64,000 nt of DNA from an uncultured Acidobacteriota bacterium (GTDB taxonomy: Bacteria; Acidobacteriota; Vicinamibacteria; Vicinamibacterales; UBA2999): assembly GCA_963707825.1 (NCBI GenBank), contig CAVPRP010000009.1:154602-218601 (forward strand). The letters are read 5' to 3'. The notes below the pieces were generated by a model, which was given only the letters and a program-made list of their open reading frames with translations, was not told the DNA's origin and made no database searches. Every line of letters begins with the position of its first letter. Position 1 is the stretch's first letter. Below are positions 14,572 to 31,742 of the stretch, piece after piece. A program made the position numbers and the translations under genes.

Positions 14572-14872
14572 AGAAGGCAAAAGGCAAAAGGCAAAAGGCA
14601 AAAGAACGGCAGACGGCAACCGGCAGTCGGCAGACGTAGAGCCTGAAGCCTGAAGACAGAGACGCCCGGGGTTGCGACATACGCGGCCCCGGGCGATTCT
14701 CTGTACGGAAGGCAAAAAGGAAAAGGCAAAAGGCAGAAGGACCGGCAGCCGGCAGACGGAGGCAGAAGGCACAACGGCGGCCGACAGCTGGCCCTGGCCG
14801 CAAGCCCCAAGACTCAAGACCCAAGACCCAAGACCCAAGACCCAAGCTTCAGCGCAAGCCCCAAGACCTAAG
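14572..14872 (+). repeat. Heptanucleotide tandem-repeat mosaic, locus 2 (two sub-arrays split by a hairpin)
   Basis: AAGGCAA x4, GGCAGAC-type x4, GCCTGAA x2, then a hairpin. After it: AAGGCAA-type x4, CGGCAGC/GGCAGAC, [C/T]CAAGAC x6, and AAGCCCC-type units. Confidence 0.9.
14663..14695. terminator. GC hairpin between convergent genes (possible bidirectional terminator)
   Basis: CGCCCGGGG (14663-14671) pairs with CCCCGGGCG (14687-14695) around a 15-nt loop. It lies between stops at 14567 (+) and 14875 (-). There is no strong T-tract. Confidence 0.45.
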
Positions 14873-14874
14873 CC

Positions 14875-17145
14875 CTACTTGAGCGCCTCCAACTGCTGTC
14901 GTGCGGGCGCGAACTGTGGGTCGATCTCCAGCGCGCGGCGGAAGGCGGTCTCGGCTTCGGCGCGTTTGTTCTGTCGCGCCAGGGCCAGGCCGAGGTTGAA
15001 GGCATACTGCGCGTTCGTGCCGTCGCGCGTGTTGGCTTCACGAAACGCCTGCTCGCCGGCCGCGAGGTCGCCGTTCCCCGCGAGAATCATCCCCAGCGAG
15101 TTCCAGTACGACGCGGTGCCCGGATCGAGCTGCACCGCTTCGCGAAGCAGCCGCGCCGCGTCGGCCGCGCGGCCGAGGTCGCGGTACAGCTCGCCCAGCT
15201 TCACCCGCACCAGTGCATCCTTCGGGGCCAGCTGCGCCACGCGCTCGTAGGCGCGCACGGCGGCGACCGGGTCGTCCATCCGCCGCGCCACGTCGCCTTC
15301 GCGCTCGATCAGCCGCGGGTCATCGGGCGCCACCTTCAAGCCGCGCCGCACCGCCTCGAGCGCCAGGTTCGGCTTGCCATCCGCCAGATGCACTTCGGCC
15401 AGGCCGATGTAGGCGGCGGTGTAGGCCGGCAGCTTCTGCAACGCCCCTTCGTAGTGCGTCGCCGCCTCGCGCCAGCGCTTGAGGCCGACCAGCGCGCGCG
15501 CAGCGTAGTAGTGCGCCTCGAAGCTGTCGATGCCCCTCGCAAACAGCTGCTGGAACCCGGCGTAGCTGGCGGCGAACCGGCCTTCGCGCAGGTTGACCAG
15601 CCCCTCGCGCATCAGCGTGTTGACGATCTGGTACTCCTCGATCTTGTCCTTCGGATCGGCGCCGGACGCACGAGATGCCGCCGGTCCGGACGAACTGACG
15701 TAACCAAGCGCGCCCAGCTTCTCGAGCAGATCGGCGGGGACCGAGGCGGCGGCCGGCCCGGTGTCGCGCAGCAGGGCCTGCTCTTCACGGAGGCGCTGCT
15801 CGATGCCCGATCGATACGCGCGGGCGCGTTGCGGCTCCTTGTCGATCAGGTTCTGCCGCTCGTGGGGGTCCTGTCCCAGGTCGTACAACTCCGGACGCGG
15901 CGCGAGGATGTACTTCCATTGGCCGTCGCGGACCGCGCGCAGGTCGCTCCATCCGTAATGGACCAGCGGCACCAGCGACTCGGCAAACGTCGGCTCCTCG
16001 TCCTGCGGCGTGCCACGTAGCGCCCCGGCCAGCGATCGACCGGACACCTTCGGCGTCTTCGCCGCCAGCCCGAGCAGGTCGAGCACGGTCGGCATGACGT
16101 CAACGTTGCGCGTCACCGCCTTCAGCCTGGTGCCGGGCCTAATCCCGGGCCCGCGCATCAGCAGCGGCACGGCGAGCGTGGACTCGTAGACGAAGAAGCC
16201 GTGCACCGCTTCCTTGTGCTCGTCGAGGCCCTCGCCGTGATCGGACGTGACGATGAGGAGCGTGTCGTCGCGAAGCTTTGCCGACGCCAGGGCCGCGTCG
16301 AGCCGGCCCACCAGTTCGTCGGACCACGCCACTTCCCCGTCGTAGGGACGTCCGGCGTACTTCGTCGCGTATGGCTCCGGCGGTTCGTAGGGATCGTGCG
16401 GATCGTATAGATGGACCCACGCAAACCGCCGGTCCGCACCCGCGGCACCCAGCCACGCCGTCGCCTCCGCCACCGTGGCGTCGCCGCGCTTCTGAATCGT
16501 GTTGAGGAAGCGGGCATCGTCCTCGCCGATGTCGAACTTGTCCGAGTAGTCGGCGAACCCGCGCGCCAGCCCGGACTGCCGCGACAGGACGATCGACGAG
16601 ACGAACGCCGCGGTCTTGAACCCGTTCTGCTGGAGGATCTCCGCCAGCACCGGCACCTTGCCGCCGAGCGGCGGCGAGACGTTGTCACGAATGCCATGCT
16701 CGGCCGGATAGAGCCCGGTGAAGAGCGAAATGTGGGACGGCCGCGTCAGCGGCACGTGCACCGAAGCGTGTTCGGCCATCGCGCCTTCCGAGGCCAGGCG
16801 ATCCAGGTTCGGCGTCGCGACCGTCGTGTTGCCATAGACGCCGAGACGATCGGCCCGCAGCGTGTCGATGGTGACGATCACCACGTGCTTCGGCACGCGA
16901 GCCGCGGCGGGCGGGCCGGACGGCGCCGACGAGCCGCACGCGGCGACGCTCAGGAGGACAGCCACCACCGCGGCCGCAAGCAGGGGGACGCGGCTGGCGG
17001 CTCGGCTTGCGTCTTGAGTCTTGGGTCTTGGGTCTTGGGGCTGTGCCGGCTGCCGGCTGCCGGCTGCCGTTTTGCCTTCTGCCTTGTGCCTTTTGCCTTC
17101 TGTCTTCCGTCTGCCGTCTGCCGCCTGCCGTCTGCCGATACTCAC
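14875..17145 (-). CDS. Sulfatase-fold (alkaline-phosphatase superfamily) + TPR lipoprotein, paralog 1
   Basis: Motifs: IDTLRADRLGVYG, VPLTRPSHISLFTGLYPAEHGIRDN, SDHGEGLDEHKE, lipobox LLSVAAC, and a C-terminal TPR-like region. The only canonical start upstream of the lipobox is GTG 17145 (GTGA overlap with the upstream stop). That start would translate repeat locus 3. The alternative is CTG ~16983. Confidence 0.8.
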   Translation of the reverse strand: MSIGRRQAADGRRKTEGKRHKAEGKTAAGSRQPAQPQDPRPKTQDASRAASRVPLLAAAVVAVLLSVAACGSSAPSGPPAAARVPKHVVIVTIDTLRADRLGVYGNTTVATPNLDRLASEGAMAEHASVHVPLTRPSHISLFTGLYPAEHGIRDNVSPPLGGKVPVLAEILQQNGFKTAAFVSSIVLSRQSGLARGFADYSDKFDIGEDDARFLNTIQKRGDATVAEATAWLGAAGADRRFAWVHLYDPHDPYEPPEPYATKYAGRPYDGEVAWSDELVGRLDAALASAKLRDDTLLIVTSDHGEGLDEHKEAVHGFFVYESTLAVPLLMRGPGIRPGTRLKAVTRNVDVMPTVLDLLGLAAKTPKVSGRSLAGALRGTPQDEEPTFAESLVPLVHYGWSDLRAVRDGQWKYILAPRPELYDLGQDPHERQNLIDKEPQRARAYRSGIEQRLREEQALLRDTGPAAASVPADLLEKLGALGYVSSSGPAASRASGADPKDKIEEYQIVNTLMREGLVNLREGRFAASYAGFQQLFARGIDSFEAHYYAARALVGLKRWREAATHYEGALQKLPAYTAAYIGLAEVHLADGKPNLALEAVRRGLKVAPDDPRLIEREGDVARRMDDPVAAVRAYERVAQLAPKDALVRVKLGELYRDLGRAADAARLLREAVQLDPGTASYWNSLGMILAGNGDLAAGEQAFREANTRDGTNAQYAFNLGLALARQNKRAEAETAFRRALEIDPQFAPARQQLEALK
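17008..17138 (-). repeat. Heptanucleotide tandem-repeat mosaic, locus 3 (inverted relative to locus 2)
   Basis: Plus strand reads GTCTTG[A/G] x4, GGCTGCC x3, TTGCCTT-type x5 and GTCTGCC-type x4. These are the reverse complements of CCAAGAC, GGCAGCC, AAGGCAA and GGCAGAC. Confidence 0.9.
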
Positions 17146-19439
17146 TGCCTCCCCCCAGCCAGCCGTTCGGCGCGCTGCCCGGCCGCGACGTGACGCTGTG
17201 CCTCGGCCTCGCGCCCCAGCCGCGAGTAGACATCGGCCAGCACGTAATGGCCGAGCGGCGCCATCGCGGGGTCTGGCGCGGAGGCGAGTCCCTTCACGGC
17301 GGCCTGTTCGGCCTCTTTCAAATCACCGGCGTCGAGCGCTGCCTTGGCGAGGTACAGGTAACCGGTGCCGAAGTCCGGCTTCTTCTCGACGGCGGCGCGA
17401 TAGTGAGCCAGCGCCTCTCCCGCGCGTCCCGTCTTCGACAGCAGCTTCGCAAGGTTGAACTCCGGCTGGAACAGCTTCGGGCTGCGGGCGATCTCGGCTT
17501 CGTACGCGGCCATCGCGGCCGGCAGGTTTTCGCGGACCTCGTACACCAGGCCGAGATCGTAATGCGCCATGGCCTGGTCGCCCTTGGCCGCAATCGCCTC
17601 GGTCAGCGCCTTCTCCGCCGCATCGAACTGCTTGAGTTCGATGCGCGCTTCGCCCAGCTTCACGAGAAAGGCCGCGCGATCGGCGTCGAGCGTCAGTCCT
17701 TTCTCGAGGAGGGCCGCTGCCTCGGCGAACTGGCCCTTCTCCATCGACAACTCCGCCAGCTGATACAGCGGCTTGGCACCGCGGGGATTCAGCTGCATCA
17801 CCCGTTCGAACCCGGCCCGCGCCTCGTCGTCTTTGCCGGCGGTGCGATAGGCGAGCGCCAGGCTCCACGCCGCGCCCTCGTGCTCGGGATCGACGGCGAG
17901 CGCTCGCTGATAGGCCGCAATCGCGTCCGCCGGACGGCCGGCCTTGGTGTGCATGTTGCCGAGCATGGTGAACGCTTCGATCACTTCCGGATCGGCGGCG
18001 AGCACTTCGCGCACCTTCGCAATGCCGTCATCGAGCTTGCCATCGACGGAATCCTGGGCGGCGCGCTTCAGCAGGTTGTAGAGACCGATCTTGTCCTTGG
18101 GATCGCCGCGCGGCTTGTCGGCCATCGCCGCGCGCGTGACGCCGGAGGCGACGTAGCCAAGCGCGCGCAGTTGCTGCTCGACGGCCGGATCCACCGCGCG
18201 TGGCTGCTGCGGCACCGCCTGCGCCGCGGTCTTGCCGGCCATGTCGCGCAGGCCCCGTTCGAGCGCGTCGGCCATGCGCGGGTTCTCGGCGGAGAGGTCC
18301 TTCAACTCGCCGGGATCGGCCTGGATGTCGTAGAGCTCTCGACGTGGCGCGGCGATGAACTTGAAGCGGCCGTCGCGCACCGCGGTCAATTCGCTCCACC
18401 CGTAGTGATAACGCGGATACCAGGTCTCGCTGAACGCCAGCAGGTCCAGCGGCTCGCCGCGCCCCATCGGCACCAGGCTCGTCCCCTGCACGGCGGCCGG
18501 CACCTCCGCCCCTACGAGATCCAGGATCGTCGGCATCACATCCACGATGCGCACCTGCTCGCGCACCGCGCGCGCCGGGACGTCTGGACCGGCGACGATC
18601 AGCGGAATCCGAACCGCTGCGTCGTAGACGAAAAAGCCGTGCTGCTGCTCGCCGTGCTCGCCCAGCATCTCACCGTGATCGCCGACCACGACGACGATGG
18701 TGGAAGCCAGCCGTCCACTGGCCTCGAGGGACGCCAGCAGGCGGCCGACCTGCGCGTCGGTGGCCGCGACCTCGCCGTCGTAGGCTCCTTGCGCCGTCGC
18801 GGGAAATTGCGAGCGATAGGGTTCCGGCGGTTCGTACGGTCCGTGCGGATCGTAAAGGTGCACCCACGCGAAGAACGGTTGGGTGGTGTCCTTCTCGAGC
18901 CACGCCAGCGCGTGATCGACCACCTCGCGGCCCGGCCGCTGGGCCGCATCGAGGCCGCCGGCCATCTCGAATTTCGACAAGTCGAACTGGTCGAAGTACT
19001 CGCTGAACCCCTGCGCGATGCCCCAGCGCCGGTCCAATACGAACGCGCCGACGAATCCACCGGTCCGGTAGCCGCGCGGCTGCAGCACCTCGGCCAGCGT
19101 GGTCAGCGAGTCGTCCAGGTAGAACGCGCCGTTGTCGCGCACGCCGTGGAAGGCGGGGAACGTGCCCGTCATCAGCGAGCTGTGCGCGGGCAGGGTGAGC
19201 GGCACCACCGTCGCCGCCTGTTCGAAGCGCAGGCCGCGCGCCGCCAGCGCGTCGAGCACCGGCGTCGCCGCCGCCTTGTAGCCGTAGCTGCCGAGTCGAT
19301 CGGCTCGCAGAGTATCGATACTGATGAGGAGGACCGACTTGGCCCCCGAGGCGCGTCCCCCCACCCATCCACGCTGCGCGGCGTACCAGACCGCCGCAAG
19401 CGCCGCCACCATCACGGCGGCGGCAATCACCTTCCGCAT
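17142..19439 (-). CDS. Sulfatase-fold + TPR protein, paralog 2
   Basis: Intact 765-aa ORF. Motifs: ISIDTLRADRLGSYG, VPLTLPAHSSLMTGTFPAFHGVRDNG, GDHGEMLGEHGE, and a long C-terminal TPR region. Confidence 0.85.
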   Translation of the reverse strand: MRKVIAAAVMVAALAAVWYAAQRGWVGGRASGAKSVLLISIDTLRADRLGSYGYKAAATPVLDALAARGLRFEQAATVVPLTLPAHSSLMTGTFPAFHGVRDNGAFYLDDSLTTLAEVLQPRGYRTGGFVGAFVLDRRWGIAQGFSEYFDQFDLSKFEMAGGLDAAQRPGREVVDHALAWLEKDTTQPFFAWVHLYDPHGPYEPPEPYRSQFPATAQGAYDGEVAATDAQVGRLLASLEASGRLASTIVVVVGDHGEMLGEHGEQQHGFFVYDAAVRIPLIVAGPDVPARAVREQVRIVDVMPTILDLVGAEVPAAVQGTSLVPMGRGEPLDLLAFSETWYPRYHYGWSELTAVRDGRFKFIAAPRRELYDIQADPGELKDLSAENPRMADALERGLRDMAGKTAAQAVPQQPRAVDPAVEQQLRALGYVASGVTRAAMADKPRGDPKDKIGLYNLLKRAAQDSVDGKLDDGIAKVREVLAADPEVIEAFTMLGNMHTKAGRPADAIAAYQRALAVDPEHEGAAWSLALAYRTAGKDDEARAGFERVMQLNPRGAKPLYQLAELSMEKGQFAEAAALLEKGLTLDADRAAFLVKLGEARIELKQFDAAEKALTEAIAAKGDQAMAHYDLGLVYEVRENLPAAMAAYEAEIARSPKLFQPEFNLAKLLSKTGRAGEALAHYRAAVEKKPDFGTGYLYLAKAALDAGDLKEAEQAAVKGLASAPDPAMAPLGHYVLADVYSRLGREAEAQRHVAAGQRAERLAGGRQ

Positions 19440-19497
19440 GGCGTTATCGTATCAACCGGGTCGGGCGCTGTCGCGTTCGGGCACCGCATTTCGGGGC

Positions 19498-21081
19498 ATG
19501 ATGATCGGAAACGCCATGGCGACACGACGCGGGCCGTCCGTTTGGGGGCGACGATGCGCGGCAGCCGCGCTTGCTGCGATGGTGGCCTGGCCCCTGGGAG
19601 CCCAGGGACCGCTGCCCCCTGCCGTGGTTGCTGTCCGGGAACCCCTCGACGCCGCCCCCGACCGCGAGCGGCAGATGGACGGCGTGCTCGGAGATCTGTT
19701 CCCGGGCGTGACCATTCAGCCCCTGCCGGGAATCGGCCGACGCCCCGAAGGGCTCAACCTCTCGTTCGCCGAGGCCTTCGAGATCTACCGGGGGAACAGG
19801 GTAGCGTTGCAGACGCTCCGTGACCGCGAGTGCGCGGGCATCAGGGGTGCGACCTGTGGCGACAACCTGCCAGTACGCGCGCGGAAGGTGCTCGATTATC
19901 ACGACCAGCTCGCCAGCCAGACGCTCACCCAACTTGCCGAGGGTATCCGCCAGTCCGCCGCAGCCGGTCGGACAACGGTCGTGTTCGCCAGCAGCGGCCT
20001 TCCCTTCCGGGTCGCGCCCCTCCGTGGGCTCGACGCGGTTCGCAACGCCCTGCGCGAGTCCCGGGCAACGTTGATTGTCCTGGACGTGAACGCCGAAGGG
20101 CGGGCCCTCGAGGGGCTCAAGCGGCTGGTGGACGCGGTTCGCGCCGAGCGCTTCGTCACCACTCCTGACGATCGTTCGAAGTTGCGCGTCCGGCTGAACG
20201 ACCTGGTGGCGATCGAAGACAGCCGCCGGGCCCAGTCGGCCAGCGTTCCGTCGGCGCCTTCGGCCACCAAACCTGCGCCGGCCTTCATGAAGACCGCGAT
20301 TCAACATGCGATCGCGTTCGCCGCCCAGAGCGCATCGCTCGTGGCCGACGAGCACTACGTGCAGGAAGTGAAGGTGCGTCCCTCGATGAGCGCCCTCTCC
20401 CCCGGTTCGTCGGCCGGAATCACCATCGAACGGCGCGTCCTCGAGTCGGAAGTCGCGCTGATTCATGTCGTGGACGGGGAACTCTGGCTGCTCGCTCGCG
20501 ATGTCTTGCAGGTGGACGGGAAGCCCTTGCCCGACGCCGATCGCGTCCGGCTGCCTTCCGTGCACCCATCCTCGACCCCGGAAGCCCTGCGGCTGTTCGA
20601 GCGGATCGCGCAGCAAGGGTCGCGGTTCAATATCGGCGTCATCCCGCGCACGCTCAACACCCCGACCCTGGCGATGTGGCTGCTGACGCCCGCGATCAGC
20701 CCCCGGTTCGAATTCAAGCGCGCCGGCGCCGAGACGATCGACGGCAACCCGTGCGACGTGATCGAATTTCGCGAGCGAACCGCGCCCTATCTGTTCGTCG
20801 TGGCTGATCGGCCCACCCCGGTCGGCGGCCGCTTCTGGGTGGAGCGTCGCCGCGGAGCGGTCGTGAAGACCGAACTGTTGCTGCCGGCGCAATCGGTGGA
20901 GTGGAGCCCATCGCGGGCCAGGCTGATCGTGACCTACGTCCGGGACGCGGCGTTGTCGGCCTGGGTGCCGCGCACCATGACGGAACGCTACGACTCGCCG
21001 ACGTTGAAGCAGTTCGTCATCACCGAGTCCACCTACGCGAACTACCGCCAGTTCACCACCAGCGGCCGCATCGTCAAATAA
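19498..21081 (+). CDS. Hypothetical secreted protein
   Basis: Start trimmed to ATG 19498 (MMIGNAMATRRGPSVWGRRCAAAALAAMVAWPLGAQG, signal-like). I recognise no family. The antisense ORF 19444..21084 is Arg/Gly-rich and judged spurious. Confidence 0.55.
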   Translation: MMIGNAMATRRGPSVWGRRCAAAALAAMVAWPLGAQGPLPPAVVAVREPLDAAPDRERQMDGVLGDLFPGVTIQPLPGIGRRPEGLNLSFAEAFEIYRGNRVALQTLRDRECAGIRGATCGDNLPVRARKVLDYHDQLASQTLTQLAEGIRQSAAAGRTTVVFASSGLPFRVAPLRGLDAVRNALRESRATLIVLDVNAEGRALEGLKRLVDAVRAERFVTTPDDRSKLRVRLNDLVAIEDSRRAQSASVPSAPSATKPAPAFMKTAIQHAIAFAAQSASLVADEHYVQEVKVRPSMSALSPGSSAGITIERRVLESEVALIHVVDGELWLLARDVLQVDGKPLPDADRVRLPSVHPSSTPEALRLFERIAQQGSRFNIGVIPRTLNTPTLAMWLLTPAISPRFEFKRAGAETIDGNPCDVIEFRERTAPYLFVVADRPTPVGGRFWVERRRGAVVKTELLLPAQSVEWSPSRARLIVTYVRDAALSAWVPRTMTERYDSPTLKQFVITESTYANYRQFTTSGRIVK

Positions 21082-21090
21082 CACGTCCCA

Positions 21091-21884
21091 TCAGGTCGCC
21101 TGTCGCAGCATCAGCAGGCCGACGGCGAGCAGGACCATGCCCAGGCTGACGCGCAGCAGGGCCTGAGGCACGCGCGATCCGACGGCCGCGCCGGCAACGG
21201 CCGCGGGAACGGAACCGACGAGCAGATCGCGGAGCAGCCCGCCATCGACCTGGCTGATGGCCAGGTGCCCGATGCCAGCGCAGAGAGCCAACGGGATGGC
21301 GTGCGCGATGTCGGTCGCGACCAGCCGCGAGGGTGTGAGCCTGGTGGGATAGAGATGATAGAGGAAGACGGCGCCCAGCGCTCCGGCGCCGACCGAGGTG
21401 AGCGTGACCAGCGTCCCCAGGGCGATGCCGGCCGCGACGGTCAACATCCCTTCCCATCGCCAGGTCCCGTCCCGTACGCGACAGCGGCCGCGCCGCGAGT
21501 GGACGGCCGCGCAAGGGAGCGAGGCAGCACCAGGCTGAGCGCGGTGATGCAGACCGCGATCGCAATCGCGATCTTCACGAACGTCACGCTCGCCTCGTCC
21601 ATCGGGTGACGCGCCATCCACATCACGGTGAGGATCGACGCCGGCAGGCTCCCGGTCCATAAGCGCCTCACCACCAGCCAGTCGATCAGGCCCTGGCGCA
21701 CGTGCAAGCCCGACACCGCGATCTTGGTGATGGCGGCAAACCACAGATCCGTGCCCACGGCCGTGAGCGGAGCGGTGCCGAACACGAGCAGCAGGATCGG
21801 CGTCATCAGCGCGCCGCCACCCACTCCCGTCATACCGACGACGAAGCCCGTGAGGGCGCCGGCGGCCACGCGCATCGGGTCCAT
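21091..21884 (-). pseudogene. TauE/SafE-family sulfite/sulfonate exporter; one frame change near 21500
   Basis: The N-half ([19 protein letters not shown]) and C-half ([18 protein letters not shown] ... MLRQAT) lie in different frames. Both halves carry the family's repeated glycine-rich motif. Confidence 0.7.
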
Positions 21885-21887
21885 GGC

Positions 21888-23735
21888 TCAGGAAACGACG
21901 GCCAGGATCTGCTCGACGCACTCGTCCACGGTCCGGCCCGTGGTGCGGACGTGCAGCTCGGGATGCTCCGGCGGCTCGTAGGGGCTGTCGATGCCGGTGA
22001 AGTTCGGCAGCGCGCCCGCGCGCGCCTTCGCGTACAGCCCCTTGGGGTCGCGGCGCTCGCACTCGTCGAGCGGCGTGTCCACGAACACCTCGATGAACTC
22101 TCCCTCCGCGAACAGCGCCGCGCGCCAGCTCGCGCTCGGCGCGGAACGGCGAGATGAACGCCACCAGCACGATCAGGCCGGCATCCACCATCAGCCGCGC
22201 CACTTCGGCGACGCGACGGATGTTCTCGGCGCGATCGGCCTCGGTGAAGCCGAGGTCGCGATTCAAGCCGTGGCGGATGTTGTCGCCATCGAGCAGGTAG
22301 GTGTGCCGGCCGGCGGCGAACAGCCGCTGCTCGAGCCGGTTGGCGATCGACGACTTGCCCGGATCCCGACAGCCCGGTGAACCACACGCAGCGCGGCTGC
22401 TGCTGCTTCTGCAGCGCGCGCGCGGAGCGGTTGACCTCGAGCGCCTGCCAGTGCACGTTCGAGGCCCGGCGCAGCGCGAAGTCGATCATGCCCCGCGCCC
22501 ACCGTCTCGAAGGTGAGCGGGTCGATCAGGATGAAGCCGCCGAGCGTCCGGTTCACGGCGTAGGGCTCGAACGCGAGCGGCTGCGCAGTCGACAGATTGA
22601 CGACGCCGATCTCGTTCAGGGCCAGCGTCTTCGCCGCCAGGTGCGCGTCGCTCTCGATGTCGACGCGATGCTTGATCGCGGTCACCGAGGCGCGCACCTC
22701 CTTGGCGTGCGTCTTCAGCAGGTACGACGCGCCCGGGAATCAGGGCGTGCTCGCCCATCCACAGCAGCCGTGGCCTCGAACTGATCGGCCACCTGCGGCG
22801 GCTCCGCCGCGGCGGCGATGACATCGCCGCGGCTCGACGTCCACTTCGTCGGTCAGCGTCAGCGTGATCGAGTCGCCGGCCTCGGCGCGGCTGCGCGTCC
22901 CGTCCAGGGTGACGATGGCGTCGACCTGGGTTTCAACGCCGGACGGCAGCACCCGCACCCGATCGCCGGGGTGCACCGCGCCCGATGCAGACGCGTCCGG
23001 CAAGCGCCGCGGAAGTCCGGGCCCGGTCGGTTGACCACTGGATCGGCATCCGGAACGCGCCGGCCGACGGCGGGCCCGACACTTCGACGTTCTCGAGGTA
23101 GCTCATCACGGTCGGCCCGTCGTACCACGGCATGCGCGGGCTCGGCGCCCGTCAGATGATCGCCTTCGAGCGCCGAGATCGGGATCGGCCGCACGGCCGT
23201 CACCCCGCACTGAGCCGCGAACGCGGCGTACTCGTCGACGATGGCGTCGAAGACCTGCTGGCCGTAGTCCACCAGGTCCATCTTGTTCACGGCCAGCAGC
23301 ACGTGCCGGATCCCCATCATCGCGACGATGCGGGTGTGGCGGCGGGTCTGCGGCAGCACGCCCTTGCGCGCGTCGATCAGGATGATGGCGAGGTCCGCGG
23401 TCGACGCGCCGGTCGCCATGTTGCGCGTGTACTGCTCGTGACCGGGCGTGTCGGCGACGATGAACCGTCGCGGCGGCGGTGGCGAAGAAGCGATAGGCGA
23501 CGTCGATGGTGATGCCCTGCTCGCGCTCGGCCTGCAGGCCATCGACGAGCAGCGCGAAATCGAGGCGCGCGCCCTGCGTGCCGAACCGGCGCGAGTCGGC
23601 TTCGAGCGCGCGCAGCTGATCCTCGAAGACCGCGCCGCGACTCGTACAGCAGCCGTCCGATCAGCGTCGACTTGCCATCGTCCACGCTGCCGCAGGTGAT
23701 CAGGCGAAGCAGGGCCGCGCTCAGAAGTAGCCCTC
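21888..23735 (-). pseudogene. cysN: Bifunctional sulfate adenylyltransferase subunit 1 / adenylylsulfate kinase (CysN-CysC fusion); about 11 frame changes
   Basis: Motifs are spread over three frames. GTPase: [37 protein letters not shown] kinase: [10 protein letters not shown](K)[47 protein letters not shown]. The 5' end is uncertain. Confidence 0.8.
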
Positions 23736-24616
23736 CCGCTTCTTCTTCTCCATCGAGGACGGGCTGGTCGCTGTCGATCAGCCGCCCCTGACGCTCGGAG
23801 ACCGCGGCGGCCGCCGTCTCGGCGACGATCTCGGCGACGGTCGTGGCCGGGCTCTCGATGGCGCCGCTCAGCGGATAGCAGCCAAGGGTGCGGAACCGCA
23901 CGAGCCGGCGCTGCGGCTGCTCGCCCGCGAGCAGCGGGAACCGTTCGTCGTCGACCATGATCAACGTGCCGTCGCGGTCCACGACCGGGCGCTCCTCGGC
24001 AAAGTAGAGCGGAACGATCGGGATGGGCTCGCGTTCGATGTAGCGCCAGATGTCGAGCTCGGTCCAGTTCGAGAGCGGGAAGACGCGAATGCTCTCGCCG
24101 GGATGAATCCGCAGGTTGTAGATCGCCCACAGCTCGGGGCGCTGCGCCTTCGGATCCCAGCGGTGGCCCTGCGAGCGGAACGAGCAGATCCGCTCCTTGG
24201 CGCGCGAGGCTTCCTCGTCGCGGCGCGCGCCGCCGAAGATGACGTCGAAGCGATGCGCGTCGAGCGCCTGCCGCAGCGCCTCGGTCTTCATCACGTCGGT
24301 GTAGTAGCTGGAGCCGTGGGTGAAGGGCGTGACGCCCGCGGCCAGGCCCTCGGCGTTGGTGTGGACGATGAGACGCGCATGCCGGCTTCGCGGACCATGC
24401 GCTCGCGGTGCGCGTACATGTCCTTGAACTTCCAGGTGGTGTCGACGTGGAGCAGCGGAAACGGCAGCGGGCGCCGGGTGGAACGCCTTGCGCGCCAGGT
24501 GCAGCAGCACCGACGAGTCCTTGCCGATCGAGTACAGCAGCACCGGGCGCTCGCCCGCCGCCACGCGCCTCGCGCAGGATCTCGATGCTCTCCGATTCCA
24601 GGGCGTCCAGCGCCAT
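23721..24616 (-). pseudogene. cysD: Sulfate adenylyltransferase subunit 2 (CysD); about 4 frame changes
   Basis: Starts [17 protein letters not shown]. Motifs: [17 protein letters not shown] (PP-loop), [18 protein letters not shown] in another frame, [13 protein letters not shown], and the terminal [12 protein letters not shown] in another frame. Confidence 0.85.
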
Positions 24617-24680
24617 CAGCGTTTCATCATGGCACAGGCACGTTGAGCGCCGCGACCCGGCATATCATCGCTGTTGGCCC

Positions 24681-26749
24681 GTGACCATCATTCGTCGCTT
24701 CGTCCTCGCCGCTCTGGCGGCCGCGATCGCCTCGGGCGGTTGCCGGCCTGCGCCAACACCAGCCCCGGCACCGGCGCGCGCGAACATCCTGCTGGTCACG
24801 CTCGACACCTTTCGCGCGGATCGCGCTCGGCCGCGGGTTCACGCCGGCGCTCGACCGGCTGGCGGCGCAAGGCCTGCGCTTCACCGAGGCGCGCAGCGTG
24901 GTACCGCTCACCCTGCCCGCGCACGCCTCGATCATGACCGGCCAGTGGCCACCGGCGCATGGCCTGCGCCTGAACGGTTCGCCGCGACTGGACGGCGCCG
25001 CCACCCTGGCGACGCAGTTGAAGCAGGCCGGCTATCAGACGCGCGCGGTGGTCGGTGCCTTCGTGCTGGATCGGCGATTCGGTCTCGATGCCGGCTTCGA
25101 CCAGTACGACGATCGCATCGCGCGTGATCCGCGGGCCACCGATGTTCTGCAGGCGGAACGGCCGGCGTCGGCGGTCGCCGGCACCGCGCTAGCGCAGCTC
25201 GATCGGATCAGCGCCGATGCGCCGTGGCTGCTGTGGGTGCACTTCTACGACGCGCACGCGCCGTATACGCCACCGGACGATGCGCGGCAGCGCGCCGGCG
25301 GCGATGCCTACAACGGTGAGATCGCGTATGTGGACGCGCAGGTGGAGCGGCTGCTGGCCGCGATCGAGCGACGCGCGGATGCCGCCCGGACGGCGGTCGT
25401 CGTGGTTGGCGATCATGGTGAGAGCCTTGGCGCGCACGGCGAGCCGACGCACGGCATGCTGCTGTTCGAGCCGGCGCTGCGGGTGCCACTGATCGTGCGC
25501 GCCCCAGGGGTGGCCCCGGCCGAGCGGGCCGATGCCGCGAGCCTGGTGGATATCGCGCCGACGGTGATGGCGCTCGCTGGCGTGAGCGCCGCGGCGACGC
25601 CTGGCCGCAGCCTGCTTGCACTGCCCGTCGACCGACATCGAGACCTACGCGGAGAGCGAGTATCCGACGGTCGCCGCCTGGACGCCGGTGCGGGCGCTGA
25701 TTCGCGAGCGCTGGAAGCTGGTCGCATCGAGCACGCCGAAGCTGTTCGACCTCTCGACCGACCCGGGCGAGCTGTCCGACGTGTCGGCGACGAAAGCTCC
25801 CACGACCAGGGCGATGACTGCCCGCCTGGCCGAGATCAGGCGCCCCTCAACCGGCGCTCGCGCCGGAGGCGCCCCGGTTGTGTCGGCGGAAACAGCGGCG
25901 CGCTTGCAGTCCCTCGGCTACGTGGCGCCGAGCCCCGCAACGGTGCCCGACACCGGCGGCGTCGATGCCGCCACGGCAATGGATGCGTGGGCTTCGTTCG
26001 AAGCCGCGCTCGCCGAGGTCACTGCCGGCGACGCGGCCAGGGCGCTGCCGGCGCTGTCGAAGCTGACTGCGCGCTATCCGGGCTCGCCGATCTTCGCGTC
26101 CACCTACGCTCGGGCGCTGGCGTCAGCGGGACGTGGACGAGACGCGCTGGCCCGGTTGCGGGCTGCCGTCAAGCAGTGGCCTGGCGACTGGTCGCTCTAC
26201 CACGAGCTCGCGGTCGTCGCGCGCGATCTGGGCGAGGCCGACGAGGCACGGCGCGCGGAAGACGCCGCACTGGCGCTCCGTCCGGACGAACCGTCCGCCC
26301 TGAACGGACGCGGTCTGCTGCTGGCCGATGCCGGCCGGCACGATGACGCGGCACGCGCGTTCGACCACGCGGCCAGGCAGGACCCGACCAACGGCGTGTA
26401 TTTCGCCAACCTCGGTAATTCGCGGCGGGCCCTTGGTGACCTCGATGGCGCGGCGGTCGCTTACCAGACGGCACTCGACCGCGCCCCTGATCTCGGCGAT
26501 GCGCTCAACGGGCTCGGCGTGGTGCTGGTCCAGCAGCGGCGGGCAGCCGACGCCGTGCCGTGGCTCGAACGCGCGGCGCAGGACCCAGGGTTCGTCGAGG
26601 CGCAGCTGAACCTGGGCATCGCCCTGCAAGAGTCGGGAAACGTCCCGCGCGCGGTGACGCAGTATCGGAAGGTGTTGTCGACGCCAGGCCCCTTCGCGCG
26701 CGAGCGCGAAGCGGCGCGCACCCTGCTTGGCAACCTGGAGCGCCGATGA
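24681..26749 (+). pseudogene. Sulfatase-fold + TPR lipoprotein, paralog 3; two frame changes (~24825, ~25620)
   Basis: GTG 24681 with lipobox AIASGGC. Motifs: LVTLDTFRADR, VPLTLPAHASIMTGQWPPAHGLRLNG, GDHGESLGAHGE, then a TPR region ending ...LLGNLERR*. Confidence 0.8.
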
Positions 26750-28579
26750 CGCGCGCGCTTCTGGCTGATCGGCCTGGTGGCCGGTCTCTCCGCGTGCACG
26801 CCGGCACCGCCCCCCGAACCGGCGCAGAAGCGTGCTGCTCGTCACCATCGACACGCTGCGTGCCGATCACGTCGGCGCTTACGGCGCCACAACAGCGCGC
26901 ACGCCGGCGCTCGACACCCTGGCGCGCGAAGGCGCGCGGTTCGATCGCGCGTGGGCGCCGGCCCCGATTACCCTGCCGTCGCACGCCAGCCTGCTGTCGG
27001 GCCGATATCCGCCAGGTCACGGCGCCCGACACAACGGGATGGCGATGCAGGCCGTCCCGACGCTGGCCACCACGTTCAAGGCGGCCGGCTTCGCGACCGC
27101 GGCATTCGTGTCGGCCTTCCCTCTCGACAAGCGCTTCGGGCTCACCCGCGGCTTCGATCACTACGACGATGAACTGCCGCGCGGGACGGACGGCCGGCCG
27201 TTGAACGAACGGCCCGGCGCCGACACCGTGTCCCGGGCGCTCACGTGGCTGCAGGCCCACGGCGACGAGCGGTTCTTTCTCTGGGTTCACGTCTTCGAGC
27301 CCCACGCGCCGTACGGCACACCCGGCTCGGGCGCGCCGGTCGCAGGCGCGCTACGACGACGACATCGCCGTCGCGGATCGCGAGTTGGGAAGACTCCTCG
27401 CGGCGCTCGGCGGCCGGGCGGCCACTCACGCTCGTGATCGGCGCCAGCGATCACGGCGAGGCCTTCGGCGAGCACGGCGAAATCGGGCACAGCATCTTCG
27501 TCTACGACACGACACTGCGGGTACCGCTGGTCATGCGTGGCCCCGGCGTGCGCGCCGGGTACCGTCGTGCCGGGCGACGTGTCGCTGGTGGACCTGGCTC
27601 CGACGCTTCGCGCGCTCACGGGCACGCCGGCGATGGAAGGGGACGGGCTGTCGCTGACCCCGGCACTTGCGGGCGGCACCCTGCCTGCGCGGCAGCTCTA
27701 CGCCGAGTCGTACGCGCCGCTCCTCGACTTCGGATGGGCCGGCCTGCGGGCGGTGCGGGAAGGGCCGTGGAAGTACATCGCCGCCCCGCGGGCCGAGCTG
27801 TACGACATCTCGCGCGATCCCGGGGAGTCGGCCAACCGGATCGGCGAGAATCCCGAGCTCGAGGCCCGCCTGGACGGAGACGCCAGGCAGCGCAGCCCTG
27901 CCGAGCCGGGCGCTTCCCCGGCCATGGCGCCGGAGGCCGTCGCGCGGCTTCAGAGCCTGGGGTATCTCAGCGGCTCCGCACGTCCCGGGAGTGCGACAAC
28001 CCGGCCGGATCCCAAGGATCGGATTACGGTGGCGTCGCGCCTGGCCACGGTCACCTCGGGCGAGGTGCGCGGCGACGAGCTGATTGCCACCCTCGAGGCC
28101 GTGCTCCGCGACGACCCGCCCAATCCGCAGGCGCACCTCCGACTGGGCTTTGCGGAGATCGAGCGCGGGCGATGTGCGCAGGCCGAGCCGCACCTGCGGG
28201 CCGCGCTCGATGCCGGCATGCCGTCGGCCGATGCCGGCCTGGGGTTGGCCGCCTGTTTCGGGCAGGCCGGCAACCTGACGGCCGCCCGCGAGGCGCTGCT
28301 GGCGGCGCGCCGAGCCGAGCCCGGCAACCCGGTGGTTGCCGCCAACCTGGGGATCCTGGAACTCGCCCAGGGGCGCGTGGGGCCGGCCATCGCCGAACTG
28401 CGCACCGCCCTGGCCGCCGAGCCCGGGCTGCTGGAGGCGCGGTTCGCGCTGGCCCGCGCGCTGGCCCGGTCGGGCGACCGCGAGGGGCGGCGGCCGAAGC
28501 CAACACCCTGCTGGGCCAGTTGCCGCCGGGCGCGCCACAACGCGCAGAAGTGCGGCGTTTGCTCGACGCCCTCCGCTAG
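26746..28579 (+). pseudogene. Sulfatase-fold + TPR lipoprotein, paralog 4; about 6 frame changes
   Basis: ATG 26746 overlaps the paralog-3 stop (ATGA). Lipobox LVAGLSAC. Motifs: LLVTIDTLRADHVGAYG, APITLPSHASLLSGRYPPGHGARHNG, SDHGEAFGEHGE, and a TPR tail ending ...RRLLDALR*. Confidence 0.75.
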
Positions 28580-28728
28580 GCGCTGGCCCCGTCTGGGGCG
28601 ATTCATCTGGGACGAACGGTCAAAACTGCGCAATTTCTGCGCAACTTCTTTCGATTCATGGCCTTACGGGCAGGGACAGCGCCTTGACAGGAGGGGGTCT
28701 GTAGTGTTCAGCTTCTTAATTGTTGTTC

Positions 28729-28757: not shown

Positions 28758-28765
28758 GAGCTTCT

Positions 28766-31712
28766 ATGTCAACGATGCGGCGAGCCGTGTGGCTCCTGGC
28801 GTTGTTCCTACTCACCAGCGTCTCGGCATCGGCGCAGCAGACGACCGGCACCATTGTCGGTCGCGTGCTCGATGACCAGGGCGCGGCCATTCCCGGCGCC
28901 ACGGTCATCGCCTCGAGTGCCTCGACCGGCTTCACGCGCGAAGCGATCTCGCGATGCCGAAGGCGTCTACCGCCTGAACGCGCTGCCGGTCGGCCGCTAC
29001 GACCTGACGGTCGAGCTCGCCGGCTTCAGCCAGCGTCGAACGCAAGGACGTCGTCGTCAACGTCGGCCAGACGATCACGCTCGACTTCACGCTGCAAGCG
29101 TGGCGACCGTCGCGGAGACGATCACCGTCACCGCCGCAGGCGCCGCTGATCGAGTCGTCGGTGTCGTCGGTCGGCGGCGTCGTCGACATCGGCCGCATCG
29201 AGAGCATTCCGCTCAACGGCCGCCAGTTCGCGAACCTCGCCGCGACGCTGCCCGGCGTCGGCCTCGGCAACCACTCCGATCCGACCAAGAGCACGCAGTA
29301 CTCGCCGCAGATCAACGGCGGCAACGGCCGCAACGTGAACTACCAGATCGACGGCGGCGACAACAACGACGACACCGTCGGCGGCCTGCTGCAGCTGTTC
29401 CCGCTCGAGGCGATCCAGGAATTCAACTTCGTCACCTCGCGCGTCGAAGGCCGAGAACGGCCGCAGCAACGGCGGCGTGATGAACATCGTCACCAAGAGC
29501 GGCACCAACAACGCTCCGCGGCAGCTTCTTCACGCTGTTCCGCGACGATTCGATGAACGCGAAGACGACCACCGAGAAGAACAACAACAGCGACAAGCAG
29601 GACTACCGCCGCTACCAGTACGGCGGCAGCTTCGGCGGCCCGATCGTCAAGGACAAGGTCGCACTACTTCGGCGCGGTCGAGCGCACGCAGCAGGACACC
29701 TTCCAGGTCGGTGTCAACACGAGGGTCTGTTCCCGGCGCAAGACGGCACCTACGCCACGCCGTATCGCGAGACGCTGCTGAACGTGAAGGTGACCGCCAA
29801 CATCACCCCGAGCCAGTACCTGTCGGTTCGCTACGGCCGCAACCAGAACTCGCAGCCGTACGGCGCCGACGTCGAACCGCGCGCCGAGCAACTGGGGCGA
29901 CAGCACCAACGACGTTCAACTCGATCAACCTGAACCACAACTGGGTGCTCGGCGGCACCAAGCTGAACGAGTTCATCTTCCAGTACGCCGACTTCGCCGA
30001 ACGACATCACGGCGCGCAGCCACGATCCCTACCAGATCTTCCCGAACGGCGTGGCCGTCGGGCAGAGCCCGAACACGCCGCAGACCACGCGAGCAGAAGA
30101 AGTGGCAGTTCCGCGACGACTTCTCGTGGCACCTCACCGGCAAGGGCGGCGTCGGCCACGACTTCAAGACCGGCGTGAACTTCATCAACGAGCCGACGCC
30201 TGTACATCAGTTCAACACGCGGCAAGGGCGTCGTGCAGTACACCCACCTGACCGACAACGTCGAACGGACCGATTTCGACGGTCACCCTCAACGACGGCG
30301 ACGCGTCGGCCAACATCCCGCTGAAGCAGTACGCGTTCTTCGTCCAGGACGACTGGGCGGTGAACGACAAGCTGACGCTGAACGTCGGCCTGCGCTACGA
30401 CCTGATCGACGGCTACCAGTTCGACCAGTCGAAGAACCCGAACTTCGTCAAGATGCAGGACGCCGGCCGCGCCGGGCAGCTCACCGGCATCAAGGGCCTG
30501 GAGAACTTCGGCCAGGATCCCGAAGGACGACACCAACAACTGGCAGCCGCGCCTCGGGCTTCGCCTACGACGTGCGCGGCAACGGCAAGGACGTGATCCG
30601 CGGCGGCTGGGGCATCTACATGGACATGGCCTACACCAACTCGAACGCGCTGTTCGCGGCCAGCGACGCCACCGGCAAGGGCTTCGGCGCCGTGCTGTCG
30701 GTCGACAACCAGCCGGGCATTCGCAACCCGGACGGCACGCTTCTACCAGGCCGGCCAGCCGCTGTCGAACATCGCGAGCCAGAACCAGTCGAATCCGAAC
30801 GCGCTGCCGCTGTTCGGCCAGTTCACCGATCCGCGCCTGCAGATGCCGTACACGCGGCAGACCTCGCTCGGCTGGTCGCACGAGCTGTCGCCGAGCACCG
30901 TGTTCACGGCCGACTTCGTCCGCGCCGACGGCCGCGACCTCAACGTCCGGCCGCGCATCAACACGCGCATCATCCCGAACGGCGCCGCGCGTGCTGGCGT
31001 TCCTGAACCTCGCTGCCCAACGCGATCGGCACGCGGCCGGCGATCAGCCGCGGCGAGAGCGAAGTACACCGCGCTCATCACCGGCGTCAAGCGCCGCATG
31101 ACGAACAACATCGATTTCGCGGTCACCTACACGCTGGCCGAAGCGCGCAGCCAGATCGGCACGGCGTCCGACGAGCTGAACGCCAACCTGCTGCAGGACG
31201 CCGACGCTGCTGTACGACGACCCGCGCGTCTACGGCCCGACGTCGCGCACCGATGCGCGGCACTCGGGCTCGCTCGTCGATGGTCTGGCTGGTGAAGGGC
31301 TTCACCATCGCGCCGACCTACTTCTACCGTTCGCCGCTGCCGGTGCAGACCATCACGGGCGTCGACGCCAACCTCAACGGCGAGAACAACGACCTGCCGG
31401 AGCGCGCCTACCAGTTCACGGACGTCGGCCAGGCGCCGGAGGACATCGGCGCGTGCGAGACCTGGAACTGCAGCCGCGGCGCGTGGCGCACGCAGATGAA
31501 CCTGCGCGTCTCGCATGGCTTCGGCCTGGGCGGGCAGCGCGCGCATCGAGGCGATTGCCGAGGTGTTCAACCTGCTGAACGCCAAGAACCCGAACTTCAC
31601 CATCGTCAACAACCAGACGAGCGCGCTGTTCATGCAGCCCGACGCGTTCGCGGGTGACTTCCAGCAGCGCGAACAGCGCGTCGGCCAGATCGGCTTCCGC
31701 TTCTCGTTCTAG
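28766..31712 (+). pseudogene. TonB-dependent receptor with carboxypeptidase-regulatory-like domain (paralog 2); about 25 frame changes
   Basis: Starts MSTMRRAVWLLALFLLTSVSASAQQTTGTIVGRVLDDQGAAIPGATV. Recognisable receptor blocks hop between all three frames: IESIPLNGRQFANL, GVMNIVTKSGTNN, DKLTLNVGLRYD, GWGIYMDMAYT, VFNLLNAKNPNF. The gene ends ...QIGFRFSF*. Confidence 0.8.
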
Positions 31713-31742
31713 TCCGGATCGACGACTCGACCGAGTCTGACA

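What the first reader, a model, noticed from the sequence alone, without database searches (positions are those of the whole stretch)
14875..28579. Four 'sulfatase'+TPR paralogs carry Thr/His instead of the formylglycine motif and flank the PAPS-synthesis genes
Two tandem pairs of about 750-aa proteins join a sulfatase-fold domain to a long TPR tail. One pair is on the minus strand and intact. The other is on the plus strand and frame-disrupted.
- Missing sulfatase signature: where true sulfatases have C/S-x-P-x-R (the formylglycine site, established), all four have T-[LR]-P-[SA]-H.
- Observed motifs: VPLTLPAHSSLMTG..HGVRDNG, VPLTRPSHISLFTG..HGIRDN, VPLTLPAHASIMTG..HGLRLNG and APITLPSHASLLSG..HGARHNG.
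- Closest resemblance: this matches the Thr-nucleophile segment of nucleotide pyrophosphatase/phosphodiesterases ([22 protein letters not shown]) and of phosphoethanolamine transferases.
- Implication: these proteins are probably phospho- (or sulfo-) transfer or diesterase enzymes rather than FGly sulfatases.
- Genomic context: the pairs sit either side of TauE-cysC/N-cysD. That placement may be coincidental or may hint at a sulfur-linked role.
Basis: partly seen in the sequence, partly recalled or inferred. Interest (0 to 1): 0.55.

Follow-up and report, generated by a model that had tools for sequence, protein, structure and literature searches.

The report
Threonine-type sulfatase-like lipoproteins with TPR tails
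Four divergent genes for sulfatase-shaped enzymes carry a threonine and extra histidines where true sulfatases have their formylglycine site, so they most likely cut or transfer phosphate groups outside the cell; they belong to a very large, unstudied family of soil Acidobacteria, and the "broken" pair is most likely a sequencing artefact.

Summary
T-x-P-x-H-x3-[LMIVF]-[TS]-G occurs exactly four times in the six-frame translation, once in each paralog (A, B, C, D). Independent alignments place the Thr on the formylglycine Cys/Ser of true sulfatases.

The fold and overall sequence are S1-sulfatase-like. Six of the ten sulfatase catalytic residues are replaced (FGly→Thr, Arg→His, Asp→Thr, Lys/His→Ala/Val, Lys→His). 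The resulting Thr/Asp/Asp-His/His/His set matches phosphoethanolamine transferases such as EptA and MCR-1, and it is invariant in 147 diverse family members.

Best reading: extracytoplasmic, mostly lipoprotein, metal-dependent Thr-nucleophile phosphoryl-transfer enzymes with TPR tails. Substrate unknown.

- The closest relatives overall are S1 sulfatases, not NPPs.
- The frame disruption is not specific to C and D. About 25 single-base insertions riddle 21.2–31.9 kb, including cysD, cysNC, tauE and a TonB receptor. This looks like long-read assembly error.
- The cysDNC-tauE linkage is operon-tight in one Vicinamibacterales sub-clade and absent in 95 of 96 more distant loci (116 of 126 overall).

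The family is already catalogued as "sulfatase-like hydrolase/transferase" but is uncharacterised.

The parts
14875..16968 (-). Paralog A: Thr-type sulfatase-like domain plus TPR tail, predicted lipoprotein (lipobox SVAAC), 697 aa, intact
   Evidence: ORF and translation. Source's own call P0271 is 697 aa. PF00884 at 152.9 bits, PF01663 N-terminal hit and TPR families. Motif VPLTRPSHISLFTG at 16714-16746.
17006..17137 (.). Heptanucleotide tandem arrays, (CTTGGGT)x4.9 and (TGCCGTC)x13.7, in the spacer between the B stop and the real A start. They are read through by the 756-aa ORF of A
   Evidence: TRF. Copy number differs from L022. P0271 starts downstream of the arrays.
17142..19439 (-). Paralog B: Thr-type sulfatase-like domain (residues ~35-406), linker helix (LRALGY) and about 8 TPRs (447-763). 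N-terminal signal anchor. 765 aa, intact
   Evidence: Translation. Pfam. PDB phmmer. Exact match to P0001. AF2 model with pLDDT 86.6, Thr82 at the N-terminus of helix 82-91. Foldseek.
19516..21081 (+). Secreted hypothetical protein (521 aa) with no Pfam family; C-terminal half is LolA/LprG-like. A neighbour only, not a consistent partner
   Evidence: Homologues in distant relatives are not next to sulfatase-TPR genes.
21091..21884 (-). tauE (TSUP/TauE-SafE family anion permease), frameshifted in this assembly
   Evidence: tblastn with the L002 TauE protein, two frames. PF01925 on the L002 orthologue.
21888..23724 (-). cysNC (sulfate adenylyltransferase large subunit fused to APS kinase), at least 6 frame changes in this assembly
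   Evidence: tblastn pieces in three frames. L002 orthologue carries PF00009 and PF01583. About 14 window-specific single-base insertions across cysD-cysNC-tauE, seen against both L002 and L022.
23725..24615 (-). cysD (sulfate adenylyltransferase small subunit), with compensating frameshifts
   Evidence: PF01507 on the L002 orthologue.
24681..26749 (+). Paralog C: Thr-type sulfatase-like domain plus TPR, lipobox ASGGC, about 689 aa. Two single-base insertions at about 24826 and about 25620-25627
   Evidence: tblastn frames. Insertion positions. 80-84% identical to the intact L001 orthologue. Start and lipobox. Motif at 24910-24942.
26746..28579 (+). Paralog D: Thr-type sulfatase-like domain plus shorter TPR tail, lipobox GLSAC, about 610 aa. 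Its ATG overlaps the C stop codon (ATGA). At least 5 single-base indels
   Evidence: Intact 608-aa orthologue in L001. Motif at 26970-27002.
28766..31712 (+). TonB-dependent receptor (CarboxypepD_reg plus OMP beta-barrel), heavily frameshifted. Marks the far end of the error-dense stretch
   Evidence: tblastn with the L001 976-aa protein. Pfam on the L001 gene. GC3 frame plot.

Best explanation
[quoted passage not shown] They are built on an S1-sulfatase scaffold but have an active site of the phosphoryl-transfer type.

Proposed mechanism (inferred from motifs, not demonstrated):
- Thr82 (B numbering) sits at the N-terminus of a helix and is activated by a divalent metal, most likely Zn2+, held by Asp42, Asp254 and His255.
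- Thr82 attacks a phosphate ester or diester and forms a phospho-Thr intermediate.
- His199 and His267, plus His194, His86 and His262, bind the phosphoryl oxygens or a second metal.
- Water or an acceptor then resolves the intermediate.

The C-terminal TPR superhelix probably recruits a macromolecular substrate or partner. The substrate is unknown.

The proteins are not formylglycine sulfatases. The frameshifts in C and D are most likely consensus errors of a long-read assembly, so all four genes are probably functional.
For: - Thr at the FGly position.
- Family-wide invariance in 143 representatives that are less than 50% identical to each other, plus the 4 paralogs: D42, T43, R45, D47, T82, H86, H194, D197, H199, D254, H255, E257, H262, E264 and H267. 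This argues for active enzymes.
- Loss of sulfatase residues: second Asp to Thr43, Arg to His86, Lys/His of 'GKWH' to Ala132/Val134, Lys to His267. The reference residue set comes from EfAS, PMC12421950.
- hhalign against E. coli EptA, probability 95.8. Aligned segments are 'ISIDTLRAD' with 'IVGETSRAE', 'HLYDPHGP' with 'HTIGSHGP', and 'DHGEMLGEHGEQQHG' with 'DHGESLGENGIYLHG', with the same Asp+13 spacing to the His.
- In MCR-1 the equivalent residues are the Zn1 ligands Glu246/Asp465/His466, the nucleophile Thr285, and His395/His478. The last two ligate a second Zn in LptA (PMC5031297).
- The N-terminal segment scores 62-67 bits on PF01663.
- AF2 places Thr82 at a helix N-terminus.
- Lipoboxes and signal sequences.
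- Assembly error rather than decay:
  - About 15 window-specific insertions lie in cysD-cysNC-tauE alone, seen against two comparators.
  - C is 80-84% identical to its intact L001 orthologue, like A at 83%. The conserved pieces of D are 87-95% identical, and D is 72% over an alignment that spans its frameshifted stretch.
  - Split genes occur in 6 of 15 MFD Nanopore MAG loci and in 1 of 64 others (PMC12313526).
Against: - No biochemical data exist for any member.
- Overall sequence and fold are nearest to true sulfatases and phosphonate monoester hydrolases, including the 'ELYDL..DP.E' C-terminal hallmark. A sulfate or phosphonate substrate therefore cannot be excluded.
- hhalign does not put the EptA nucleophile Thr in register with Thr82; it is 3 residues off.
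- Metal identity and stoichiometry are inferred, since no model coordinates were available.
- In one sub-clade the genes sit in an apparent operon with sulfate-activation genes, not phosphate genes.
- The origin of the window as a Nanopore MAG is inferred from relatives, not shown.
Confidence: 0.65

Rival explanations
1. They are formylglycine-independent sulfatases. Thr82 with a His-rich metal site hydrolyses organosulfate esters outside the cell, the TauE-family permease imports the released sulfate, and CysD/CysNC activate it.
For: - In L002/L005, L007, L008, L009, L010 and L013, cysD-cysNC-tauE-B-A lie on one strand. Gaps are 3-5 bp in L002 and under about 100 bp in the others.
- L014, L022, L028 and the window keep the genes within a few kb.
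- One unrelated Pseudomonadota MAG (L074) has a Thr-type sulfatase-TPR gene directly upstream of cysD-cysNC, with cysE nearby.
- The scaffold and closest solved structures are sulfatases.
Against: - Every residue that binds or polarises the sulfate in S1 sulfatases (Arg, Lys, His, Lys) is replaced.
- Known Thr/Ser bimetallo members of the superfamily have only trace sulfatase activity (my own knowledge of AP and NPP promiscuity studies).
- The linkage is missing from the closest short-read relative L001, from L011, L012 and L016-L021, and from 49 of 50 distant genome loci. It is also missing from all 47 metagenome relatives of the L074 protein.
Confidence: 0.08
2. They are catalytically dead sulfatase relics that now serve as TPR-linked binding or scaffold lipoproteins (pseudoenzymes).
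For: - The FGly motif and the sulfate-binding residues are lost.
- TPR domains are protein-interaction modules.
Against: - Fifteen polar, potentially metal- or phosphate-binding residues, including Thr82, six His and the DHGE motif, are 96-100% invariant across 147 sequences that are otherwise less than 50% identical.
- This pattern is that of a working active site and matches that of EptA/MCR-1.
Confidence: 0.05
3. C and D, together with cysD, cysNC and tauE, are genuine pseudogenes in this organism. A decaying 11-kb region leaves only A and B functional.
For: The frame changes are really in the sequence as given.
Against: - The changes are almost all single-base insertions in non-homopolymer GC-rich context. 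There is no matching excess of substitutions: amino-acid identity to intact orthologues equals that of the intact genes.
- Essential-looking sulfate-activation genes are hit equally.
- Close relatives from Nanopore MAGs carry similar indels at other positions, even in B, whereas short-read assemblies are intact.
Confidence: 0.1
4. They are ordinary FGly sulfatases and the Thr is an alignment artefact.
For: JGI automatic names such as 'arylsulfatase A-like enzyme' or 'choline-sulfatase'.
Against: - Three independent alignment methods put Thr on the Cys/Ser.
- No Cys or Ser is available in register, and 147 of 147 members have Thr.
- Scores are far below the NCBIfam arylsulfatase and choline-sulfatase cut-offs: 170 against 481 bits and 156 against 433.
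Confidence: 0.01

Closest known systems
S1 formylglycine-dependent sulfatases and phosphonate monoester hydrolases (e.g. choline sulfatase BetC 6g5z/6fny, PsS1_NC 6pt4, PyuS 7stt, EfAS 9koq, ArPMH 4uph, E. coli AslA)
   Same: - Same two-subdomain fold: all top 50 Foldseek hits, TM 0.56-0.71 on the target.
- Best sequence relatives: phmmer E=2e-35, hhalign E=4e-19.
- PF00884 at about 155 bits.
- The first metal Asp, the 'H..PH.PY' His, the Asp-His of 'DHG' and the C-terminal 'ELYDL..DP.E' motif are conserved.
   Different: - FGly Cys/Ser is replaced by Thr, and Arg of CxPxR by His.
- The second Asp becomes Thr, the Lys/His pair becomes Ala/Val, and the catalytic Lys becomes His.
- No FGE or anSME signature nearby.
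- A 200-330-aa TPR tail is added, together with lipoprotein anchoring.
Phosphoethanolamine transferases EptA/LptA/EptC/MCR-1 (catalytic domain)
   Same: - Thr nucleophile.
- Acidic residue plus Asp-His metal site.
- The two conserved His in 'HxxxxHGP' and 'DHGExLGExGxxxHG', with identical spacing (PMC5031297).
   Different: - Only remote homology: hhalign E=7e-9; NCBIfam CptA 20 bits against a cut-off of 900.
- No N-terminal multi-helix membrane domain, so no obvious way to take a lipid donor.
- Asp instead of Glu at the first ligand.
- The nucleophile loop differs (T-x-P-x-H).
- A sulfatase-type C-terminal subdomain and a TPR tail are present.
Nucleotide pyrophosphatase/phosphodiesterases and relatives (PF01663; PafA, PhnA)
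   Same: The beta1-to-nucleophile-helix segment, 'IDTLRAD ... T-x-P-x-H ... TG..P..HG', scores 62-67 bits on PF01663. It also gives N-terminal hits to the PafA and PhnA models.
   Different: - Only model positions 1-68 of 342 are matched.
- The rest of the domain is sulfatase-like.
- The NPP second-site ligands could not be mapped.

Membership tests
S1 formylglycine-dependent sulfatases (SulfAtlas S1) | C/S-x-P/A-x-R signature with the Cys/Ser that becomes formylglycine | tested here: not met
   T-[LR]-P-[SA]-H in all four paralogs. Thr aligns to the Cys of 6pt4 and to Ser136 of AslA. 147 of 147 family members have Thr and 145 of 147 have His.
S1 formylglycine-dependent sulfatases (SulfAtlas S1) | Sulfate-binding Lys/His pair ('GKWH') and catalytic Lys about 13 residues after the metal Asp | tested here: not met
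   Ala132/Val134 align to AslA Lys188/His190. His267 aligns to the Lys of 6pt4 'LYDKG'.
S1 formylglycine-dependent sulfatases (SulfAtlas S1) | Sulfatase fold and Pfam PF00884 match | tested here: met
   PF00884 at 152.9 and 156 bits. All top 50 Foldseek PDB hits are S1 sulfatases or PMHs.
S1 formylglycine-dependent sulfatases (SulfAtlas S1) | Curated equivalog scores (NCBIfam arylsulfatase, choline sulfatase, PehA) | tested here: not met
   170 against 481 bits, 156 against 433, and 127 against 900.
S1 formylglycine-dependent sulfatases (SulfAtlas S1) | A formylglycine-generating enzyme (FGE or anSME) in the genome | not testable with these tools
   No FGE 'GNxWEW' motif in the window or in the 79 related genome loci. 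anSME was not specifically searched, and the rest of the genome is not available.
Phosphoethanolamine transferases (EptA/MCR-1/LptA) | Thr nucleophile plus Zn1 ligands (Glu/Asp, Asp, His) plus the two conserved His | tested here: met
   hhalign to E. coli EptA pairs D42 with E244, H194/H199 with H380/H385, D254-H255 with D455-H456, and H267 with H468. The nucleophile loops are aligned 3 residues out of register. Residue roles are taken from PMC5031297.
Phosphoethanolamine transferases (EptA/MCR-1/LptA) | N-terminal polytopic membrane domain | tested here: not met
   Only a lipobox signal peptide (A, C, D) or a single N-terminal helix (B, residues 2-22) precedes the catalytic domain.
Phosphoethanolamine transferases (EptA/MCR-1/LptA) | Family HMM membership | tested here: not met
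   NCBIfam CptA 20 bits against 900; LtaS 23 against 970; YejM 47 against 825.
NPP / type I phosphodiesterase (PF01663) | Full-length match to the family model, including second-metal ligands | tested here: not met
   The best stretch covers model positions 1-66 or 1-68 of 342 only.
NPP / type I phosphodiesterase (PF01663) | T-x-P-x-H nucleophile segment followed by TG..P..HG | tested here: met
   The whole-protein PF01663 score of 62-67 bits exceeds the 23-bit cut-off, driven by residues 36-106.
TPR-repeat proteins | Multiple TPR Pfam matches forming an alpha-solenoid | tested here: met
   TPR_1, 2, 8, 11, 14, 16, 17 and 19 hits. AF2 shows 17 helices from 447 to 763 at pLDDT about 90-97. 114 of 150 family representatives have a related tail.

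The most novel reading that the evidence does not exclude
This abundant Acidobacteriota family is a formylglycine-independent class of sulfatase that uses a Thr nucleophile and a His-rich metal site. In some lineages it is co-transcribed with a TauE-family sulfate permease and CysD/CysNC as a self-contained 'liberate, import, activate' organosulfate-scavenging operon.
Probability: 0.08. Interest if true: 0.8.

Novelty: new variant of a known kind. Interest (0 to 1): 0.36.

Why it matters
Thousands of soil and sediment genomes annotate these genes as 'arylsulfatase' or 'choline-sulfatase'. If they are phosphoryl-transfer enzymes, sulfur-cycling inferences drawn from such annotations in Acidobacteriota are wrong, and phosphorus-related functions are under-counted.

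For enzymologists the family is a natural experiment. A sulfatase scaffold has exchanged the FGly/Arg/Lys site for a Thr/His site, and the family is very large (over 7,000 close homologues; 29,822 50%-identity clusters at E<=1e-30, a count that includes true sulfatases). It could show how the alkaline-phosphatase superfamily switches between sulfate and phosphate chemistry.

The TPR fusion and lipoprotein anchoring point to a macromolecular or envelope-associated substrate that nobody has identified.

Tried and rejected
- Family-wide link to PAPS genes. I scanned 79 genome loci and 47 metagenome loci for cysD, cysNC and tauE. Only one Vicinamibacterales sub-clade and a single isolated Pseudomonadota MAG carry them. 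Rejected as a family trait.
- Other conserved neighbours. All-against-all clustering of flank ORFs found nothing shared across lineages except paralogous copies and, in close relatives, a TonB-dependent receptor.
- The hypothetical gene between the pairs as a partner. It is a 36-member family with a LolA-like C-terminal half. It is not adjacent to sulfatase-TPR genes in three more distant genomes. Rejected.
- Membership in NPP/PF01663. Only the N-terminal fifth of the model matches.
- The Mn-dependent arylsulfatase EfAS as a possible FGly-free precedent. The paper shows it uses Cys61/FGly. Not a precedent.
- Literature searches for a characterised sulfatase-TPR fusion or for Vicinamibacteria sulfatases found nothing relevant.
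- Looking up the window's own contig by exact protein failed.
- Active-site geometry of the AF2 model could not be inspected, because no coordinates are exposed.

Full report
**What is in the sequence**

The window is 69% G+C. Its closest relatives are Vicinamibacterales (Acidobacteriota) MAGs.

Between 14.9 and 28.6 kb lie four genes for a sulfatase-like domain followed by TPR repeats:
- A: 14875-16968, minus strand.
- B: 17142-19439, minus strand.
- C: 24681-26749, plus strand.
- D: 26746-28579, plus strand.

Between the two pairs sit a hypothetical gene (19516-21081, plus strand) and tauE-cysNC-cysD on the minus strand (21091-24615).

A six-frame scan finds T-x-P-x-H-x3-[LMIVF]-[TS]-G exactly four times, once per paralog. 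It finds no C/S-x-P/A-x-R signature and no FGE motif.

The paralogs are only 32-45% identical to each other, so the duplications are old.

A is 697 aa in the source's own call. The 756-aa ORF reads through a heptamer tandem array in the B-A spacer. A, C and D have lipoboxes. B has an N-terminal signal anchor.

**The frame disruption**

A GC3 frame plot shows the coding frame switching every 200-700 nt across 21.2-31.9 kb. Elsewhere it holds for whole genes.

I aligned this stretch to two relatives, L002 (short-read MAG) and L022 (93% nucleotide identity). The window carries about 15 private insertions in cysD-cysNC-tauE alone, nearly all single bases, plus more in C, D and the downstream TonB-dependent receptor. 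B and A show only locally compensating alignment gaps.

C is 80-84% identical to its intact orthologue in L001, the same as A at 83%. D's conserved pieces are 87-95% identical, and D is 72% over an alignment that crosses its frameshifted stretch. There is therefore no sign of relaxed selection.

Split genes of this kind appear in 6 of 15 loci from Microflora Danica MAGs and in 1 of 64 other loci. The Microflora Danica MAGs are Nanopore assemblies (PMC12313526).

I conclude, by inference, that the frameshifts are consensus errors in a poorly supported stretch of a long-read contig. They are not pseudogenisation of the second pair.

**What the proteins are**

Pfam gives PF00884 at about 155 bits, plus a PF01663 (NPP) match that is above threshold but confined to model positions 1-68, plus many TPR families. 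No NCBIfam equivalog cut-off is approached.

The best solved relatives by sequence are S1 sulfatases. An AF2 model of B has mean pLDDT 86.6. All of its top 50 Foldseek hits in the PDB are S1 sulfatases or phosphonate monoester hydrolases.

Three alignment methods place Thr82 on the formylglycine Cys/Ser. The ten catalytic residues of S1 enzymes (set taken from EfAS, PMC12421950) compare with B as follows:
- Conserved: Asp42, His199, Asp254, His255.
- Replaced: second Asp by Thr43, FGly by Thr82, Arg by His86, Lys/His by Ala132/Val134, Lys by His267.

A profile comparison with E. coli EptA gives probability 95.8 and E=7e-9. It aligns D42, H194/H199, D254-H255-G-E257 and H267 with the EptA residues in 'GETSRAE', 'HTIGSHGP' and 'DHGESLGENGIYLHG'. 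In MCR-1 these are the Zn1 ligands and the two conserved histidines around the phospho-Thr285 (PMC5031297).

**Family**

The family is very large. More than 7,000 close homologues were scored in each of two searches. There are 29,822 50%-identity representatives at E<=1e-30, and the top 150 are all below about 1e-100.

I aligned 143 of those representatives with the four paralogs. Thr82, His194, His199, Asp42, Asp254 and His267 are 100% conserved. His86, His255, Glu257, His262 and Glu264 are 99% conserved. This is the signature of a working active site.

114 of the 150 representatives have a related TPR tail. Members occur in Vicinamibacterales, Aminicenantes, Thermoanaerobaculia, Planctomycetota, Lentisphaeria and some Proteobacteria.

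NCBI names them 'sulfatase-like hydrolase/transferase'. JGI names them 'arylsulfatase A-like' or 'choline-sulfatase'. SulfAtlas already warned that PF00884 contains Thr-type non-sulfatases (PMC5066984). I found no paper on this TPR-fused family.

**Genomic context**

In L002/L005, L007, L008, L009, L010 and L013, cysD-cysNC-tauE-B-A lie on one strand with very short gaps, 3-5 bp in L002. L014 has a 4.8-kb insertion between tauE and B. L022, L028 and the window share a variant in which the hypothetical gene lies inverted between tauE and B, and C-D diverge from cysD.

L001 is the closest short-read relative by B identity (91%). It has D<-C<-hyp | B->A with no cys genes.

None of the other close loci carries cys genes, and only 1 of 50 distant genome loci does. 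That one is L074, a Pseudomonadota MAG with sulfatase-TPR -> cysD -> cysNC and cysE nearby. None of the 47 metagenome relatives of the L074 protein carries them.

No other neighbour is conserved across lineages. Tandem pairs or triples of paralogs are common, and C/D overlap by ATGA.

So the PAPS-gene linkage is real and operon-like in one sub-clade, but it is not a property of the family.

**Mechanism and rivals**

The best-supported reading is a metal-dependent, Thr-nucleophile phosphoryl-transfer enzyme (phosphodiesterase, phosphomonoesterase or phospho-group transferase). It would act in the periplasm or on the cell surface, with the TPR solenoid recruiting a macromolecular substrate or partner.

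What is shown is the residue pattern, its conservation, the fold and the export signals. The metal identity, the covalent phospho-Thr intermediate and the substrate class are inferred.

The rivals are listed below, with my rough probabilities:
- A novel Thr-based sulfatase feeding TauE-CysDNC: about 0.08.
- A pseudoenzyme: about 0.05, contradicted by the invariance.
- Genuine pseudogenisation of C and D: about 0.1.
- A mis-aligned true sulfatase: refuted.

**Verdict**

This is an uncharacterised but already catalogued variant of a known kind of enzyme. It is of moderate interest, mainly because of its abundance, its systematic mis-annotation as sulfatase, and its value for understanding sulfate/phosphate switching in the alkaline-phosphatase superfamily.

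Noticed in passing
window 4560-4646, 14574-14877, 17006-17137, 50468-50675, 62176-62274: Intergenic arrays of tandem heptanucleotides. The units are CAAGACC/CAAGCCC, AAGGCAA, GACGGCA/CGGCAGA, CGGGAGA and CCGGATC, with 4-14 copies each. The same unit families recur on both strands, and copy number differs from the relative L022. They resemble cyanobacterial STRR repeats. One array is read through by the over-long ORF of paralog A.
   Followed up: partly
window 21200-31900: An error-dense stretch holds roughly 25 single-base insertions, mostly outside homopolymers. They break tauE, cysNC, cysD, C, D and a TonB-dependent receptor. The stretch begins where this lineage differs structurally from L001, which lacks the cys genes here. 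That would fit strain heterogeneity and low read support in a long-read assembly.
   Followed up: yes
window 19516-21081 (+): A secreted 521-aa protein with no Pfam family, from a 36-member family seen only in Vicinamibacterales-like assemblies. In the AF2 model (pLDDT 74.7) the C-terminal half resembles LolA/LolB/LprG/DUF1329 lipid- or lipoprotein-binding half-barrels (Foldseek E=1e-7). It is not linked to sulfatase-TPR genes in more distant genomes.
   Followed up: yes
window 7606-10464 (-): A 952-aa ORF joins a Peptidase_S15/PepX_C-like N-terminal part to what reads like a PA-domain/M28-type peptidase (judged from the translation by eye, not run against Pfam). Relative to L001, where S15 is fused to an amidohydrolase, the window has about 2.2 kb extra here.
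   Followed up: no
window 11839-14564 (+): The CarboxypepD_reg/OMP beta-barrel gene next to A has two frame changes near 13530-13660. Indel errors therefore also occur outside the main error-dense stretch, though rarely.
   Followed up: no
L074 544-8496: A Pseudomonadota MAG has a Thr-type sulfatase-TPR lipoprotein (754 aa, 'APITLPSHASMMTG') directly upstream of cysD and cysNC on the same strand, with a cysE-like gene about 2 kb further on. The arrangement is not found in 47 metagenome relatives of that protein.
   Followed up: yes
B residues 424-449 (window ~18093-18170) and family-wide: A conserved linker between the catalytic domain and the TPRs: 'L..LGY' is 95-98% conserved in 147 sequences, and it is followed by 'DPKD' in close relatives. 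Its role is unknown.
   Followed up: no
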